Below are positions 1-6,588 of a stretch of DNA of 64,000 nucleotides, piece by piece. Numbering within the stretch: position 1 is the first letter of the stretch; each line of letters opens with the position of its first letter. The notes beneath the pieces are model-generated. The model was not told the DNA's origin and searched no databases. It worked only from the letters and a program-made list of their open reading frames with translations. Made by a program: the position numbers and the translations under genes. The DNA is from Alphaproteobacteria bacterium. GTDB taxonomy: Bacteria > Pseudomonadota > Alphaproteobacteria > RF32 > CAG-239. The stretch is from contig JAQWBS010000001.1 of the NCBI GenBank assembly GCA_028706255.1, forward strand, positions 23,617-87,616. Direction: 5' to 3'.

Positions 1-1
1 G

Positions 2-1444
2 AAGAAGTCATATTTCATCTTTTTGGGAGCTTTTTTACTTTTTTATTCAAGCTTCATATTAACTAATAATGCCTTCGCTGGCGTTTATTTTATTACTAAA
101 CCCCAAGGAAACAATGATGGAGTCAGTAATAAACCCTGTCAATTGATGGGATATTTTTATAATAGTTCAAATTGTGGAGAGGGAAAATCTCTCTTTCAAA
201 AATGCCCCAATGGAAATACTTATAAGTTTTGTAAATGCGACCTTTCTCTTTATCCTTATACTGTCTCAAACTGTACAGAAACAGGCAAAGTTCTCGGAGG
301 AAAAGTCTGTGACAACACCTATTACGAAACTTGTAAATGTGAAGACAAATATCAATATGACACAACAAACTGTTCTTCACCTAAAACTCTAAGTGGCAAT
401 TCTTGTGGTGGAAAATATGAAAAATGCACGTGTCCTTCCACTTATTCTCAAACTTGTAGCGGAAATCTAATTGGGGTTGGAACAAGTTGTGATGGGAAAT
501 ATCAATCTTGTAAATGTAATAGTAATTTTCAAAAATGTGACAATGGCGGAACGTCTGGTGCTACCTCATGTTATGACTCTGAAGGAACGAAATATTCCAA
601 TTGTAAACAAATAAACTGTAGCGACGGAGGATATGTCTCTTCTGAACCTTATAATCAAAATTGCACCTATGTTTCATATAACGGAATAGATTGTTATAAA
701 AATTGTAAAGATAAAACCTGCTCTGATGGCGGATACCTTACTGCAGTTCCTGCCAATCAAACCTGTTCAACTGTTTCATATTTTGGACTAACTTGTTATC
801 GTAATTGTAAAAATATGAGCTGTTCAGAAGGGGGATATCTATCTTCCGCTCCTTCTAATCAAAAATGTACTTCCTTCACTTACAATGGCACAACTTGTTA
901 TAAAGACTGTGTAAACAAGAATTGTACAGAAGCTGGATATTTGGCCGCAGTTCCAACTGAACAAAACTGCAAGTCAATTTCTTATAATGGATTAACTTGC
1001 TATCAAAATTGTACAAATAAGAGCTGTGCTGAGGGAGGATATCTAGATGCAGCACCAAGTAATGACCATAAATGTAACTCGACCAGTTATGCAGGAAAAA
1101 CTTGCTACAAAGATTGTCAGTATAAAACCTGTGAAGATTATGCAAATACTTATGAATATGAACCTTATGGCGTGGTTTGTATGGGTCCAAATATCGTCCA
1201 AATAGCCAGTGGAAAACATTGCTACCAAAACTGTACAGATTATTGGAGAGAACCATGCACCGTAAGTAGTGACTGTAAAGATTTAAGTGCATCATATCCT
1301 AACAATTACCTACAAACTTGCTGGAATGGTTCTTGTAGATGTATGGAAGGAATCAGTTGGACATGCCTTAATCCTTGGAATGCGAGTAAAAACCCTTGGG
1401 CGCTAAATGCTGAAGAGAGATATAAAAATATCTATGGAGACTAA
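2..1444 (+). CDS. Secreted cysteine-rich modular repeat protein (true start probably just upstream of window)
   Basis: The ORF at 23-1444 stays open in frame back to nt 2, and KKSYFIFLGAFLLFYSSFILTNNAFA looks like a signal peptide. The mature part has ~5 N-terminal modules (C-x9-12-C-x6-7-C-x-C) followed by 6 tandem 34-aa modules of form C-[SE]-[DE]-G-G-Y-x9-N-Q-x-C-x9-10-C-Y-x-[ND]-C. I recognise no enzymatic motif. Confidence 0.6.
   Translation, partial: KKSYFIFLGAFLLFYSSFILTNNAFAGVYFITKPQGNNDGVSNKPCQLMGYFYNSSNCGEGKSLFQKCPNGNTYKFCKCDLSLYPYTVSNCTETGKVLGGKVCDNTYYETCKCEDKYQYDTTNCSSPKTLSGNSCGGKYEKCTCPSTYSQTCSGNLIGVGTSCDGKYQSCKCNSNFQKCDNGGTSGATSCYDSEGTKYSNCKQINCSDGGYVSSEPYNQNCTYVSYNGIDCYKNCKDKTCSDGGYLTAVPANQTCSTVSYFGLTCYRNCKNMSCSEGGYLSSAPSNQKCTSFTYNGTTCYKDCVNKNCTEAGYLAAVPTEQNCKSISYNGLTCYQNCTNKSCAEGGYLDAAPSNDHKCNSTSYAGKTCYKDCQYKTCEDYANTYEYEPYGVVCMGPNIVQIASGKHCYQNCTDYWREPCTVSSDCKDLSASYPNNYLQTCWNGSCRCMEGISWTCLNPWNASKNPWALNAEERYKNIYGD
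617..1234 (+). repeat. Six tandem ~102-nt (34-aa) coding repeats of the Cys-rich module (sixth copy degenerate)
   Basis: The protein-level periodicity CSDGGYVSSEPYNQNCTYVSYNGIDCYKNCKDKT / CSDGGYLTAVPANQTCSTVSYFGLTCYRNCKNMS / CSEGGYLSSAPSNQKCTSFTYNGTTCYKDCVNKN / CTEAGYLAAVPTEQNCKSISYNGLTCYQNCTNKS / CAEGGYLDAAPSNDHKCNSTSYAGKTCYKDCQYKT is visible in the translation. The DNA copies have diverged. Confidence 0.6.
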
Positions 1445-1542: not shown

Positions 1543-1612
1543 ACTATTGACTAAACCTTAGAAAATCAATAGTATCTGGTAAAACATAAACATATTATTG
1601 CAAGGGAAAAAA

Positions 1613-2494
1613 ATGAATTTTACGGAAATGGGTTTAAGCGAAAAAACCATCAAAGCAATTAAAGAATTTGGCATTAGAAAACCAACAACTGTGCAAACAG
1701 ATGTCATTCCTTCAATTCTACAAGGCAAAGATGTTTTTACCATCGCCCCACAAAAATGTGGCAAAACCACCTCATATGTTTTCCCTCTCATTGACATCAT
1801 CAGCAAACACGAAAGACAAAACATTTTGATTATCACACCATCTTCAGAAGATTCTGTGACCATTTCAGATCGTTTTGCTGTGTTTAATAAATATCATGAA
1901 ATCAATGAAGCAACCATCACTGAAGGCGATGAAGACATTGACAATGAAGCTAATGTCATTATTGGTTCTCCAGACCTTTTATTGGAACTCATTGAAGAAA
2001 GCAAAGTTGATTTATCAAACATCAATATTTTGGTTGTTGATGACATCAACCTAATCAAAAAACACAAGCAACTTGAAAACTTGGAAAAGATTCTCGACAT
2101 TTTACCAAGTGAAAAACAAAACATTGTTTACACAAATCGCCGTTCAAAAGAAACACAAAGCATTCTTGATAAAATTTTGAAAGCGCCAGAAGAAATTAAA
2201 ATCGACAAGGCAAAAGAACAAGAAGCAGAGATTGCTGAACAAAACATTGAGCAAAAAGCAGACTCAGAACCTGTTGAAGCAAAACAAGAAGAGACACGAG
2301 CTCCAAGAAGAGAAAGAAATAACAACAGAGAAAGACAAGAAAACAAAGACCGCCAAAGACAAAACAATAACAACAATGGCAAAGTCAACAATTTTGACCA
2401 TGAAGCTTTGCACCTTGCCAAAAAGTTCAATGCTTTTTCTGGCAGAGCGCCAAAATTCATTTTGAACAAAGGCATTCTTGTTAGAGATAACTAA
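1613..2494 (+). CDS. Degenerate DEAD-box helicase N-terminal (RecA-like domain 1) protein with a basic R/N/Q-rich tail; lacks helicase C-terminal domain
   Basis: There is a Q-motif-like TTVQ, a motif I-like APQKCGKT (compare AQTGSGKT), a motif Ia-like ITPSSED, and VVDDIN where DEAD would be. No motifs III-VI are present. It ends in a RAPRRERNNNRERQENKDRQRQNNNNN tail. The ATG at 1613 has an AAGGGA Shine-Dalgarno sequence; the tracked start at 1598 is TTG. Confidence 0.6.
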   Translation: MNFTEMGLSEKTIKAIKEFGIRKPTTVQTDVIPSILQGKDVFTIAPQKCGKTTSYVFPLIDIISKHERQNILIITPSSEDSVTISDRFAVFNKYHEINEATITEGDEDIDNEANVIIGSPDLLLELIEESKVDLSNINILVVDDINLIKKHKQLENLEKILDILPSEKQNIVYTNRRSKETQSILDKILKAPEEIKIDKAKEQEAEIAEQNIEQKADSEPVEAKQEETRAPRRERNNNRERQENKDRQRQNNNNNGKVNNFDHEALHLAKKFNAFSGRAPKFILNKGILVRDN

Positions 2495-2517
2495 GAAAAC
2501 CAAATAAAATAAAAAAC

Positions 2518-2546
2518 CCGAAGAATTAAATCTTCGGATTTTTTTT
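2518..2546. terminator. Bidirectional rho-independent terminator (CCGAAGA-loop-TCTTCGG)
   Basis: A 7-bp stem is flanked by an A-run upstream and a T-run downstream. The stop codon of the minus-strand gene 2526-2921 lies in the loop. Confidence 0.6.
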
Positions 2547-2921
2547 GAGCATCTGAAAAGGAACGAAAGCCTTTTCACCATGTTCTTGAAAAACAAGAAC
2601 ATAATCTGCTCTCAATGTAATTTTTTGAAAAACGGGTTTCTTAATCAGCCTCATTCCTCGAGAAATACCATAGAAACCAGATTTACTTATCACAATATTA
2701 TGTTCTTTATCAATTTTTTGAATGAGAACATAATTTCTAAAACGAGCTTTCAAAATCTTCTGATAGCTTTTGCGACCAAGCCAATAGAAAAAGCTCACAA
2801 AACCCCATAAAAACAGGACCACGCCTGAAAAGAGGAACCCAAGAAAAAGAATAAAATTCCAAGACAACGAATTTAACGAATCAAGCTCTGCCTGAGACAA
2901 AGCAATTTCATTTTTTTCCAT
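2526..2921 (-). CDS. Small membrane protein (two N-terminal TM helices, possible bacterial PH-like C-terminal domain)
   Basis: 131-aa ORF with the hydrophobic stretches WNFILFLGFLFSGVVLFLWGFVSFFYWL. It has its own terminator. The family call is uncertain. Confidence 0.5.
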   Translation of the reverse strand: MEKNEIALSQAELDSLNSLSWNFILFLGFLFSGVVLFLWGFVSFFYWLGRKSYQKILKARFRNYVLIQKIDKEHNIVISKSGFYGISRGMRLIKKPVFQKITLRADYVLVFQEHGEKAFVPFQMLKKNPKI

Positions 2922-3203: not shown

Positions 3204-3902
3204 CTAAGCTTTGTTATGTTTCTCGATAAAAGCAATAACAAGCTCCTGATTAGGAAATTTCTTTGCAGACAAAGAATAGATATCTCCTGCAGATTTCCAA
3301 TTTACAGAGCAATCTTTATACTCAAAACCAAGTTTCTCAATTAAGTCATAAAACGCATTGAAATAATTAGGTCTATTAGCTTTATATTGCTTACGCGCTT
3401 GCAACTGTAAACTTGAAACCAAATCACCAACAAGCGTATAACCCATCTCAGAAAGCCAATTAAAATGGCGAGAAGCAAAAGTGGGAATAAATGTCAGAGG
3501 AATTAATAGCCCTTCATTTATCTCCGACTTTCTAATGTCAAAAACCTTACCCTGCCAAAACAACTCAAAAGCTTTCTCCACACTAATAAACGGTGGAAAA
3601 TATTTTTGGGAAATCTCCATATGGTTATCGGGTAGCCAATCAACATGCTCAAAAGAATGACTAAAAGTTAACTCAAATTTTTTGAGTATTTCCTTAAGTT
3701 CTTTCAAACTTTTTTCACCGATGTTTCTAAACTTTAAAACATCTTCTTCGGAATACATCAATACTTCACCTAAATATGGACAATTCAAGTATCGTAAAAA
3801 ATTCAGGGTTCTTTGAGAAAGTTTTAGTTGCTCAATGGGGACGAAGTAACCAATCTTGCCTTCAAGCAAGGCTTTTTCTTCTGATAAAATCTCTTTTTTC
3901 AT
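3204..3902 (-). CDS. Stand-alone protein with two RNA polymerase alpha-subunit C-terminal-domain (alpha-CTD, HhH)-like domains
   Basis: LKLSQRTLNFLRYLNCPYLGEVLMYSEEDVLKFRNIGEKSLKELKEILKKF aligns at about 40% identity with this genome's own RpoA CTD ([51 protein letters not shown]). A second, weaker copy is NWLSEMGYTLVGDLVSS...LIEKLG. Confidence 0.55.
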   Translation of the reverse strand: MKKEILSEEKALLEGKIGYFVPIEQLKLSQRTLNFLRYLNCPYLGEVLMYSEEDVLKFRNIGEKSLKELKEILKKFELTFSHSFEHVDWLPDNHMEISQKYFPPFISVEKAFELFWQGKVFDIRKSEINEGLLIPLTFIPTFASRHFNWLSEMGYTLVGDLVSSLQLQARKQYKANRPNYFNAFYDLIEKLGFEYKDCSVNWKSAGDIYSLSAKKFPNQELVIAFIEKHNKA

Positions 3903-5815: not shown

Positions 5816-6205
5816 CTAGACTCTACGTCTCTTCTTCATACGACAACCATTGTGAGGAATAGGTGTAACATCACGAATAGCTGTGATTGTGAAACCTATT
5901 GCTTGCAATGCTCTAATCGCAGACTCACGACCAGATCCAGGTCCTTTAACTTCAACTTCTAAAGTTTTCATACCATGCTCTTGAGCTTTTTTACCAGCTT
6001 CTTCAGCAGAAATTTGTGCAGCATAAGGGGTAGATTTTCTAGAACCCTTAAAGCCTTGAGCACCTGCTGTACACCAAGCAACTGTGTTGCCTTGAGCATC
6101 AGTTATTGTTATTCTTGTGTTGTTGAAAGTAGAATTTACGTGAGCAATCCCAGCCGTAATATTCTTTTTCTCTTTCTTTTTAACACGTTGTGCTACTTTT
6201 GCCAT
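5816..6205 (-). CDS. rpsK: 30S ribosomal protein S11
   Basis: [23 protein letters not shown]...[13 protein letters not shown] is a typical S11. Confidence 0.95.
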
Positions 6206-6218
6206 TTGTTATCCTACC

Positions 6219-6588
6219 TTATTTCTTCTTATTCGCAACAGTTTTACGTTTACCCTTACGTGTTCTAGCATTTTGCTTAGTACTTTGTCCACGAACAGGC
6301 AACCCTTTACGATGTCTTAAACCTCTATAACATCCAAGATCCATCAATCTTTTGATGTTAACGTTAACTTCACGACGAAGCTCACCTTCCACAAGGTAAT
6401 CAGTATCAATTACTTCACGAATTTTTGACACCTCGTCATCAGACAACTGATGAACGCGGCGTTCTGAAGTAATTCCTGATTTCTCACAAATGTCTTGAGC
6501 AGATTTTCTACCAATACCAAAAATATAAGTCAAAGCCACTTCTACTCTTTTGGCGGTTGGAATATTTACACCAGCTATACGAGCCAAA
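6219..6588 (-). CDS. rpsM: 30S ribosomal protein S13
   Basis: [25 protein letters not shown] matches S13. The likely start is TTG at 6588 with a GGAG Shine-Dalgarno sequence. An in-frame ATG at 6647 would add 20 non-conserved residues. Confidence 0.85.

What the first reader, a model, noticed from the sequence alone, without database searches (positions are those of the whole stretch)
2..1444. Secreted protein built entirely from two kinds of tandem cysteine-rich modules
After a signal peptide there are about 5 modules of type C-x9-12-C-x6-7-C-x-C. Then come 6 precise 34-aa modules (C-S/E-D/E-G-G-Y-x9-N-Q-x-C-x9-10-C-Y-x-N/D-C). About 60 Cys fall in 470 aa. This resembles eukaryote-like disulfide-knot or EGF-like arrays more than any common bacterial family. 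It suggests an extracellular host-interaction protein. The DNA repeats have diverged, which argues against recent slippage.
Basis: seen in the sequence. Interest (0 to 1): 0.6.

Follow-up and report, generated by a model that had tools for sequence, protein, structure and literature searches.

The report
Secreted cysteine-rich modular rod protein
This is an intact gene for a secreted protein built from two previously undescribed small disulfide-rich modules; it belongs to a rare, shuffled gene family seen so far only in uncultured Alphaproteobacteria (the relatives with a stated source are gut bacteria) and most likely forms a stiff stalk for surface or adhesion domains, not a borrowed eukaryotic EGF-like array.

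Summary
Window 2..1444 (+) encodes a 481-aa protein whose ATG straddles the window edge. It has 4 clear and 1 degenerate 'A' modules, then 5 precise and 1 degenerate 34-aa 'B' modules, then a distinct Cys-rich tail, so it is not built entirely of two module kinds.

Cys substitution patterns across 283 modules argue for disulfides C1-C3 and C2-C4.

The B module is very rare: 101 cluster representatives among 1.84 billion. Every named member is an uncultured Alphaproteobacteria MAG. The modules shuffle with variable C-terminal domains (Lcl_C adhesin heads, beta-solenoids). At least 9 family members, including this one, sit in this genome; one is 100% identical over aa 63-180 and then unrelated.

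Best reading: a disulfide-braced stalk of a variable surface or adhesin family. The function is inferred. GC content and the lack of eukaryotic homologues argue against eukaryotic origin.

The parts
1..76 (+). Signal peptide (M)KKSYFIFLGAFLLFYSSFILTNNAFA. The ATG is cut by the window edge. The predicted signal peptidase I site is AFA|G.
   Evidence: Translation. 100% match to the annotated 481-aa protein starting MKKSYF. The n/h/c regions and the AXA site were read from the sequence. The signal peptide is conserved in at least 6 members of the same MAG.
77..100 (+). Conserved N-terminal motif GVYFITKP at the predicted mature N-terminus. Its role is unknown; an anchor or sorting element is possible.
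   Evidence: Regex survey of 120 family proteins with an N-terminal Met. 22 carry A-G-[VI]-Y-[FW]-[IL]-[TP]-[KD]. A separate looser pattern matched 19 more (KLAAVC.., YKLARSHFLPDY), whose relation to the first motif was judged by eye. No Pfam or NCBIfam model covers it.
137..616 (+). Array of 'A' modules: 4 clear and 1 degenerate. Each is 27-34 aa with 4 Cys, consensus Y.Y...NC.......G.SC.GKY..C.C, and each is predicted as a beta-hairpin.
   Evidence: Cys spacing. HMM hits at window aa 51-79, 84-113, 116-144 and 149-172, with E 7e-9 to 1e-13. AF2 pLDDT mostly above 85 (above 90 for most 10-residue blocks) with paired strands. 72 instances across the collected set of 155 sequences, which includes near-identical cluster members. 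100% identical to paralog PHE89_00005 over aa 63-180.
617..1129 (+). Array of five 'B' modules (34, 34, 34, 34 and 35 aa), consensus C-[SE]-[DE]-G-G-Y-x4-P-x-N-Q-x-C-T-x-V-[ST]-Y-x-G-x-T-C-Y-x-[DN]-C. Each is a short turn plus a long beta-hairpin. Inferred disulfides are C1-C3 and C2-C4.
   Evidence: HMM E 7e-13 to 2e-16 per module. AF2 of modules 2-4 gave pLDDT 95. Cys-pattern compensation in 283 unique instances. DNA copies are 55-68% identical.
1130..1234 (+). Degenerate sixth B-like module (CEDYANTYEYEPYGVVCMGPNIVQIASGKHCYQNC).
   Evidence: It keeps the 4-Cys frame (x15, x13, x3) and the terminal CYQNC. Only a partial HMM hit, E 0.05.
1235..1444 (+). Orphan Cys-rich C-terminal tail (about 69 aa, 6 Cys, W-rich) plus the stop codon. 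This is the position where relatives carry variable 'head' domains.
   Evidence: No Pfam hit. No homologue among 155 collected family sequences. Low AF2 confidence.

Best explanation
The gene encodes a Sec-exported protein whose 50 cysteines form about 25 disulfides. These brace a linear chain of about 11 small beta-hairpin modules of two unrelated, previously undescribed kinds (A and B), giving an elongated and probably stiff, protease-resistant rod.

It is one member of a lineage-restricted, recombining multigene family in uncultured Alphaproteobacteria. The related genomes whose source is stated are gut MAGs; the source of this MAG is not known.

In this family, a conserved signal peptide and N-terminal motif plus the A and/or B rod carry interchangeable C-terminal domains. 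The rod most likely acts as a stalk or spacer that holds a variable binding 'head' away from the cell. The architecture parallels the anchor-stalk-head 'lollipop' of the Legionella adhesin Lcl. In this copy the head is a small orphan Cys-rich domain.

Shown here: the modules, their rarity, their shuffling, the hairpin fold prediction, Cys-pair compensation, mosaicism between paralogs, and native base composition.

Inferred: export, disulfide bonding, rod or stalk mechanics, surface location, and an adhesion or variable-surface role.
For: - The ORF is intact and identical to an annotated protein.
- Signal peptide with an AXA site.
- Cys is 10.4% against a 0.9% background, and the count is even.
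- In the initial 34 homologues, 119 B and 59 A instances occur independently and in either order. There are 434 B and 72 A instances across the 155 collected sequences.
- The A and B profiles are unrelated to each other.
- AF2 gives pLDDT above 90 for most of aa 41-273 as serial hairpins, and pLDDT 95 for three B modules.
- Cys patterns: the canonical (1,16,26,30) pattern is seen in 194 of 283 instances. Loss of C16 or C30 is compensated by C10. A 3-Cys module type (20 instances) was seen directly ahead of a 5-Cys module type (21 instances) in the listed tandem arrays. So cysteines are kept in pairs, as disulfides require.
- Relatives fuse the modules to Lcl_C/DUF1566 (above the Pfam cutoff in P0013), to beta-solenoid-like repeats, to DUF4215 and to a pectate-lyase-like adhesive domain.
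- Lcl is a signal, N-terminal anchor, stalk and DUF1566-head adhesin (PMC11162425).
- At least 9 family members, including this one, lie in the same MAG. The one on the same contig is 100% identical over aa 63-180 and then unrelated.
- Other MAGs hold 5-11 loci each, often at contig ends.
- GC 0.358 and GC3 0.248 match the neighbours.
Against: - There is no experimental or expression evidence.
- Surface location is unproven. There is no recognisable anchor, barrel, autotransporter or sorting signal, and no conserved secretion-gene neighbour.
- This particular copy lacks any recognisable binding head.
- Whether this genome has an oxidative-folding system (DsbA/DsbB or VKOR) was not checked, and such a system is not a given if the organism is an anaerobe.
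- AF2 confidence is low for aa 274-480 in the full-length model, which I attribute to a poor alignment there.
Confidence: 0.6

Rival explanations
1. Eukaryote-derived EGF/TNFR-like cysteine-rich domains, acquired by horizontal transfer and used to mimic host ligands or receptors.
For: The top (non-significant) Foldseek hits of the full model are TNFR cysteine-rich domains, the Entamoeba Gal/GalNAc lectin Cys-rich region, Notch EGF and follistatin. The inferred C1-C3 / C2-C4 pairing is the pairing of the first two disulfides of EGF domains (from my own knowledge).
Against: - No Pfam hit, even at E <= 10.
- 4 Cys per module, not 6.
- Only one marginal eukaryotic protein among 101 hits in 1.84 billion representatives.
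- GC and GC3 equal those of the flanking ribosomal genes.
Confidence: 0.05
2. Polymorphic toxin or effector family: a conserved N-terminal delivery and stalk region carrying swappable C-terminal toxin domains.
For: The N-terminus is conserved and the C-termini are unrelated among paralogs, with an abrupt identity breakpoint. Several C-termini have no annotation.
Against: - The recognisable C-terminal domains are adhesin or structural types (Lcl_C, beta-solenoid, pectate-lyase-like adhesive), not toxins.
- There is no small immunity-like gene downstream: the next gene is a DEAD-box protein, 154 nt away.
- No conserved neighbours.
- No PHROGs hits. PADLOC was not searched.
Confidence: 0.1
3. Metal-binding protein (zinc-ribbon-like or metallothionein-like clusters) in which the cysteines ligate metals rather than form disulfides.
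For: There are four Cys per module, CxC motifs in the A modules, and very high Cys content. If the organism is an anaerobe, as is common for gut bacteria, conditions would disfavour disulfides.
Against: - The signal peptide places it outside the cytoplasm.
- There are no CxxC or His ligand motifs (Cys spacings).
- Cys loss is compensated pairwise, including between neighbouring modules. This is expected for disulfides, not for tetrahedral sites.
- AF2 is confident without metal.
Confidence: 0.07
4. Structural envelope or matrix component (S-layer-like, sheath or biofilm scaffold) rather than a stalk for a binding head. The module array itself would be the functional part.
For: Some family members are almost pure B arrays with no head (P0008, P0011, P0012, P0023). 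The window copy has only a small tail. The copy number per genome is high.
Against: Many members carry large, distinct C-terminal domains. No self-assembly motif is known. Nothing was tested directly, so this reading overlaps with the best explanation.
Confidence: 0.15

Closest known systems
Legionella collagen-like adhesin Lcl and other DUF1566 (Pfam Lcl_C, PF07603) proteins
   Same: Relatives of the window protein (P0007, P0013, P0016 and others) have a signal peptide, a conserved N-terminal element, a long repetitive spacer and Lcl_C head(s). This is the same anchor-stalk-head layout described for Lcl (PMC11162425).
   Different: The stalk here is a monomeric chain of disulfide-rich hairpin modules, not a trimeric collagen triple helix. 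The N-terminal motif is different. The window protein itself has no Lcl_C domain.
Eukaryotic small disulfide-rich tandem modules (EGF-like domains, TNFR cysteine-rich domains, Entamoeba Gal/GalNAc lectin Cys-rich region)
   Same: Extracellular tandem modules of 30-40 aa that are disulfide-braced beta-hairpins forming rods. The inferred 1-3 / 2-4 pairing is shared. These are the top, though non-significant, Foldseek neighbours.
   Different: There are 4 Cys per module, not 6. No sequence-profile match. No significant fold match. The distribution is bacterial only.
Giardia variant-specific surface proteins (Cys-rich CXXC surface multigene family)
   Same: A conceptual parallel, from my own knowledge: about 10% Cys, extracellular, and a multigene family with conserved and variable parts in an anaerobic gut organism. 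Mosaic paralogs are seen here.
   Different: There are no CXXC motifs and no Pfam VSP hit. The anchoring differs and the organism is prokaryotic. Switching or antigenic variation was not tested.
Myxococcus cysteine-rich repeat (DUF4215 / TIGR02232)
   Same: A bacterial secreted Cys-rich tandem repeat. One family member carries a DUF4215 hit alongside B modules.
   Different: The window protein gives no hit to it in Pfam or NCBIfam. The motif and period differ.

Membership tests
EGF-like domain (Pfam PF00008 / PF07645 / PF12662) | About 40 aa with six Cys paired 1-3, 2-4, 5-6, and a match to an EGF profile | tested here: not met
   Four Cys per module. No Pfam hit at E <= 10. Foldseek against Notch and Jagged EGF gave E 2.4-5.
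TNFR cysteine-rich domain (PF00020) | About 40-aa CRD, typically with three disulfides; a profile or fold match | tested here: not met
Cystine knot / knottin | Three disulfides, with one threading the ring formed by the other two | tested here: not met
   Only two disulfides are possible per 4-Cys module. The inferred pairs C1-C3 and C2-C4 lie on a simple hairpin.
Lcl / DUF1566 adhesins (PF07603) | [quoted passage not shown] | tested here: not met
   Absent from the window protein. Present in relatives: P0013 scores 37.5 bits, above the 34.9 cutoff; P0007 and P0016 are below the cutoff.
Lcl / DUF1566 adhesins (PF07603) | Trimeric lollipop on the cell surface that binds glycosaminoglycans | not testable with these tools
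   Needs biochemistry. Known only by analogy from PMC11162425.
Myxococcus Cys-rich repeat (DUF4215 / TIGR02232) | Match to the repeat profile | tested here: not met
   Pfam and NCBIfam gave zero hits for the window protein. One distant family member has DUF4215, E 1.2e-7.
Giardia-type VSP / furin-like CXXC repeats | Frequent CXXC motifs; a VSP or furin-like profile match | tested here: not met
   No Cys-x2-Cys spacing anywhere in the protein. No Pfam hit.
New A/B Cys-module family of uncultured Alphaproteobacteria (defined here) | Tandem B modules (C.[DE]GGY..P.N..C..V.Y.G.TCY..C) and/or A modules (Y.Y...NC..G.SC.GKY..C.C) after a signal peptide | tested here: met
   Five B modules at E 1e-13 to 1e-16 and four A modules at E 1e-8 to 1e-13. 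Top hit of the exhaustive B-profile search, E 1.4e-89. The window protein's own modules were used to seed these HMMs and the search profile, so these scores are partly circular; the independent support is the 100 other cluster representatives that match.
New A/B Cys-module family of uncultured Alphaproteobacteria (defined here) | Cysteines form intramodule disulfides; the protein is exported | not testable with these tools
   Supported indirectly by Cys-pair compensation and the signal peptide. Proof needs mass spectrometry and localisation.

The most novel reading that the evidence does not exclude
The A and B modules are two new disulfide-rich folds. Together with the conserved N-terminal 'AGVY[FW][IL]P/T-D/K' motif, they would define a previously unrecognised surface-display system specific to a clade of uncultured Alphaproteobacteria. 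Recombination between paralogs (identical stalk, swapped heads) would generate a repertoire of variable surface proteins, a bacterial counterpart of the Cys-rich variant surface protein families of gut protists. It would also imply robust extracytoplasmic oxidative folding in these bacteria.
Probability: 0.3. Interest if true: 0.65.

Novelty: new variant of a known kind. Interest (0 to 1): 0.45.

Why it matters
Uncultured Alphaproteobacteria of this kind are among the least characterised gut bacteria. This multi-copy, recombining family is unannotated: it carries no name or domain in any database searched. It is a concrete candidate for how they contact mucus, host cells, food particles or other microbes.

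The two modules are unassigned in Pfam, NCBIfam and the PDB. They are compact (27-34 aa), predicted with very high confidence, and apparently tolerate shuffling. They therefore merit family definitions and may be useful as rigid protein-engineering spacers.

If the disulfides are real, the family also shows heavy reliance on extracytoplasmic oxidative folding in these bacteria.

It does not bear on any long-standing open question, and the general theme (secreted Cys-rich repeat stalk with variable heads) is familiar.

Tried and rejected
- The look-up of encoding contigs for the exact protein: not on record, so the upstream context could not be fetched.
It was redone with the three-module alignment A4.
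With the three-module profile A5 it returned only one hit, apparently a limit of the word index. The exhaustive HMMER search replaced it.
- PDB sequence search with the whole protein and with A and B profiles gave only chance hits, E >= 0.68.
- PHROGs gave nothing.
- The literature search for Cys-rich repeats in gut Alphaproteobacteria/RF32 found nothing relevant.
- Recent slippage or tandem DNA repeat was rejected.
- Pseudogene was rejected, because the frame is intact.
- Lipoprotein was rejected. There is no lipobox Cys in this copy: the position that is Cys in paralogs is Tyr here, and the residue before it is Phe.
- A conserved operon partner was rejected: no shared neighbours across 24 loci.
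- A and B being variants of one module was rejected: hhalign probability 0.4%.

Full report
**1. What is in the sequence**

Window 2..1444 (+) is one uninterrupted reading frame that runs off the 5' edge. It is 100% identical to an annotated 481-aa hypothetical protein, PHE89_00100, of an 'Alphaproteobacteria bacterium' MAG, on a 488,686-bp contig. Window base 1 is the G of its ATG.

The N-terminus, MKKSYFIFLGAFLLFYSSFILTNNAFA|GVYF, has the charged, hydrophobic and AXA layout of a Sec signal peptide. This was read from the sequence; no predictor was available.

The protein has 50 Cys (10.4%) against a median of 0.9% in 31 long reading frames (stop-to-stop, all six frames) of the same window.

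The Cys spacing resolves into these parts:
- Four clear and one degenerate 'A' modules (C-x10-11-C-x6-8-C-x-C, aa about 46-205).
- Five precise 'B' modules (period 34, 34, 34, 34 and 35 aa, aa 206-376).
- One degenerate B-like module (aa 377-411).
- A distinct Cys- and Trp-rich tail of about 69 aa.

So the protein is not 'entirely' two module kinds.

At DNA level the five B copies are only 55-68% identical. They use the same codon at only 45-69% of conserved residues, and Tandem Repeats Finder sees no array. The repeats are therefore old and held by selection on the protein, not recent slippage. GC (0.358) and GC3 (0.248) are the same as in the flanking rplQ, rpoA and rpsK genes.

**2. No known family**

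The following searches returned nothing for the whole protein:
- Pfam, at E <= 10
- NCBIfam
- PHROGs
- PDB sequences

Profiles of 43 B modules and 29 A modules against PDB sequences gave only chance hits or none. The A and B profiles are not detectably related to each other: hhalign probability 0.4%.

**3. Structure**

AlphaFold2 on the full protein with 31 homologues gave pLDDT above 90 for most of aa 41-273. This stretch is a string of two-stranded beta-hairpins, one per module. The rest was poor, which I attribute to a misaligned MSA.

A three-module B construct (window 710-1015) with a clean alignment of 35 module triplets gave mean pLDDT 95. Each module is a short turn or helix at C-x-[DE]-G-G-Y followed by a long hairpin that carries the last three Cys.

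Fold searches found no counterpart:
- Foldseek against the PDB with the full model: best E 0.069, probability 0.2. The top hits were TNF-receptor cysteine-rich domains, the Entamoeba lectin Cys-rich region, Notch EGF and follistatin.
- Foldseek with the pLDDT-95 model: best E 1.1.
- AFDB50 was not available.

The resemblance to EGF and TNFR arrays is therefore architectural only: small disulfide-braced hairpins in series.

**4. Disulfides, inferred**

Among 283 unique, near-full-length B instances, the Cys positions were as follows:

| Cys positions in the module | Instances |
|---|---|
| (1,16,26,30), canonical | 194 |
| (1,10,26,30) | 22 |
| (1,10,16,26) | 9 |
| (1,13,26), 3-Cys type | 20 |
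| (1,16,22,26,30), 5-Cys type | 21 |

In the tandem arrays listed, a 3-Cys module sits directly ahead of a 5-Cys module.

Loss of C16 or of C30 is compensated by a new Cys at position 10, and odd counts are balanced by the neighbouring module. This is what paired disulfides predict: C16-C30 and hence C1-C26, that is 1-3 / 2-4, plus an occasional inter-module bridge. It is not what metal sites predict.

**5. The family**

The first homology search found 34 proteins. At least eight of them are further family members in the same MAG: PHE89_00005, 03440, 04980, 05230, 05440, 05865, 05950 and 07150.

Local HMM iteration found 119 B and 59 A instances in these proteins. A-only, B-only, A-then-B and B-then-A architectures all occur, and B modules sit on both sides of other domains.

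An exhaustive HMMER search with the B profile covered 1.84 billion representatives of about 15 billion proteins. It found only 101 representatives at E <= 1e-3, and 30 at E <= 1e-30. Every member that carries a source name is 'MAG: Alphaproteobacteria bacterium'. The single exception is the weakest hit, E 9e-4, a Chrysophaeum ankyrin/kinase protein that I regard as noise.

A scan of GTDB species representatives gave 24 loci. Twenty-three are in MAGs labelled Alphaproteobacteria, proteobacterium or 'Azospirillum'. Of these, six loci come from a water-deer caecum MAG and one from a Hadza human gut sample; the others do not state a source.
- MAG7984 has 11 loci, RGIG8504 has 6, and 'uncultured Azospirillum sp.' has 5.
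- Many loci lie at contig ends, as expected for repeated families that break assemblies.
- The label 'Azospirillum' for low-GC gut MAGs usually corresponds to GTDB order RF32. This is from my own knowledge and was not tested.
- No neighbouring gene is conserved across the loci.

**6. Variable ends and mosaicism**

Relatives attach the modules to several domains:
- Lcl_C/DUF1566: P0013 is above the Pfam cutoff; P0007 and P0016 are below it.
- Beta-solenoid or bactofilin-like repeats (P0003, P0004, P0009; sub-threshold).
- DUF4215.
- A pectate-lyase-like adhesive domain.
- Many unannotated C-termini.

The window protein and PHE89_00005, which lies on the same contig, are 90% identical over aa 24-206. 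They are 100% identical over aa 63-180 and then become unrelated. This is a sharp breakpoint of the kind left by recombination between paralogs.

The window copy's last 104 aa have no homologue in the 155 collected sequences.

A short motif directly after the signal peptide, A-G-[VI]-Y-[FW]-[IL]-[TP]-[KD], is shared by divergent subfamilies. It sometimes lies 20-40 aa further in, as KVAGVYWLPDY. A second, looser pattern (YKLARSHFLPDY, AVKLAAVC...) matched further members; its relation to the first was judged by eye. Its role is unknown.

**7. Interpretation**

The best-supported reading has four elements: a Sec-exported, disulfide-braced rod of hairpin modules; membership of a lineage-specific, recombining family; a rod that serves as a stalk or spacer for interchangeable C-terminal domains; and a probable location at the cell surface.

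The closest functional analogue is the Legionella adhesin Lcl. It is a signal sequence, N-terminal anchor helix, collagen stalk and DUF1566 head 'lollipop' (PMC11162425). Here, Cys modules replace the collagen stalk.

Export, disulfide formation, rod mechanics, surface location and adhesion are all inferred.

Rivals:
- Eukaryotic EGF/TNFR acquisition: rejected on profile, fold, distribution and composition evidence.
- Polymorphic toxins: no toxin domains and no immunity gene.
- Metal binding: contradicted by pairwise Cys compensation and the signal peptide.
- A structural matrix or S-layer-like role: not excluded, since some members are pure B arrays.

**8. Novelty and verdict**

Both modules are undescribed in Pfam, NCBIfam and the PDB, and the family is rare and clade-restricted. 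The general kind, a secreted Cys-rich tandem-module stalk with variable heads, is familiar. I therefore rate it a new variant of a known kind, of moderate interest. Its 'eukaryote-like EGF / disulfide-knot' interpretation holds only as an analogy.

Noticed in passing
window 3204..3902 (-): A 232-aa ORF just downstream of rplQ and rpoA carries a Pfam RNA_pol_A_CTD domain (PF03118, E 2.7e-17, aa 19-73). It is a stand-alone alpha-subunit C-terminal-domain-like protein, in addition to rpoA itself.
   Followed up: no
window 1598..2494 (+): A 298-aa ORF has only DEAD-box helicase domain 1 (PF00270, aa 30-178), followed by a K/E/N/R-rich low-complexity tail. No helicase C-terminal domain was reported. 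It may be a truncated or unusual DEAD-box protein.
   Followed up: no
window 77..100 (+) and N-termini of P0046, P0050, P0064, P0085, P0088, P0109, P0027, P0007 and others: A conserved N-terminal motif (AGVYFITKP / KVAGVYWLPDY), with a second looser pattern (YKLARSHFLPDY / AVKLAAVC..) in other members, is shared across otherwise divergent subfamilies. It lies at or 20-40 aa after the signal-peptide cleavage site. No known sorting-signal model matches it.
   Followed up: partly
window 188..541 (aa 63-180) versus P0002 (PHE89_00005, same contig): A block of 118 aa is 100% identical between the two paralogs and is followed by unrelated C-termini. This suggests recent gene conversion or cassette exchange. 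The DNA of the paralog was not available to test this.
   Followed up: partly
window 2..1444 (+), mature protein: There are 15 N-x-S/T sequons against 8.1 +/- 2.5 in shuffles (p about 0.007). Seven of the 15 are N-C-[ST], six of them at module boundaries. This could be a by-product of the module consensus or glycosylation sites.
   Followed up: no
loci L004, L005, L007-L009, L014-L022: Most family genes in other MAGs abut contig ends. The repeated modules and conserved N-termini apparently break metagenome assemblies, so copy numbers per genome are probably underestimated.
   Followed up: no
L024 (CAZBOZ010000003.1, 'uncultured Muribaculaceae' MAG) 6001-6324: This is the only non-proteobacterial locus from the genome scan (tblastn E 2e-5, 37% identity). 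It was not confirmed by the A/B HMMs. It could be a chance match, a distant relative or bin contamination.
   Followed up: partly
window 2511..2544 (both strands): A strong hairpin with T-runs on both sides lies between the convergent genes 1598..2494 (+) and 2526..2921 (-). It looks like a bidirectional intrinsic terminator. On the minus strand it overlaps the 3' end of the 131-aa ORF.
   Followed up: no
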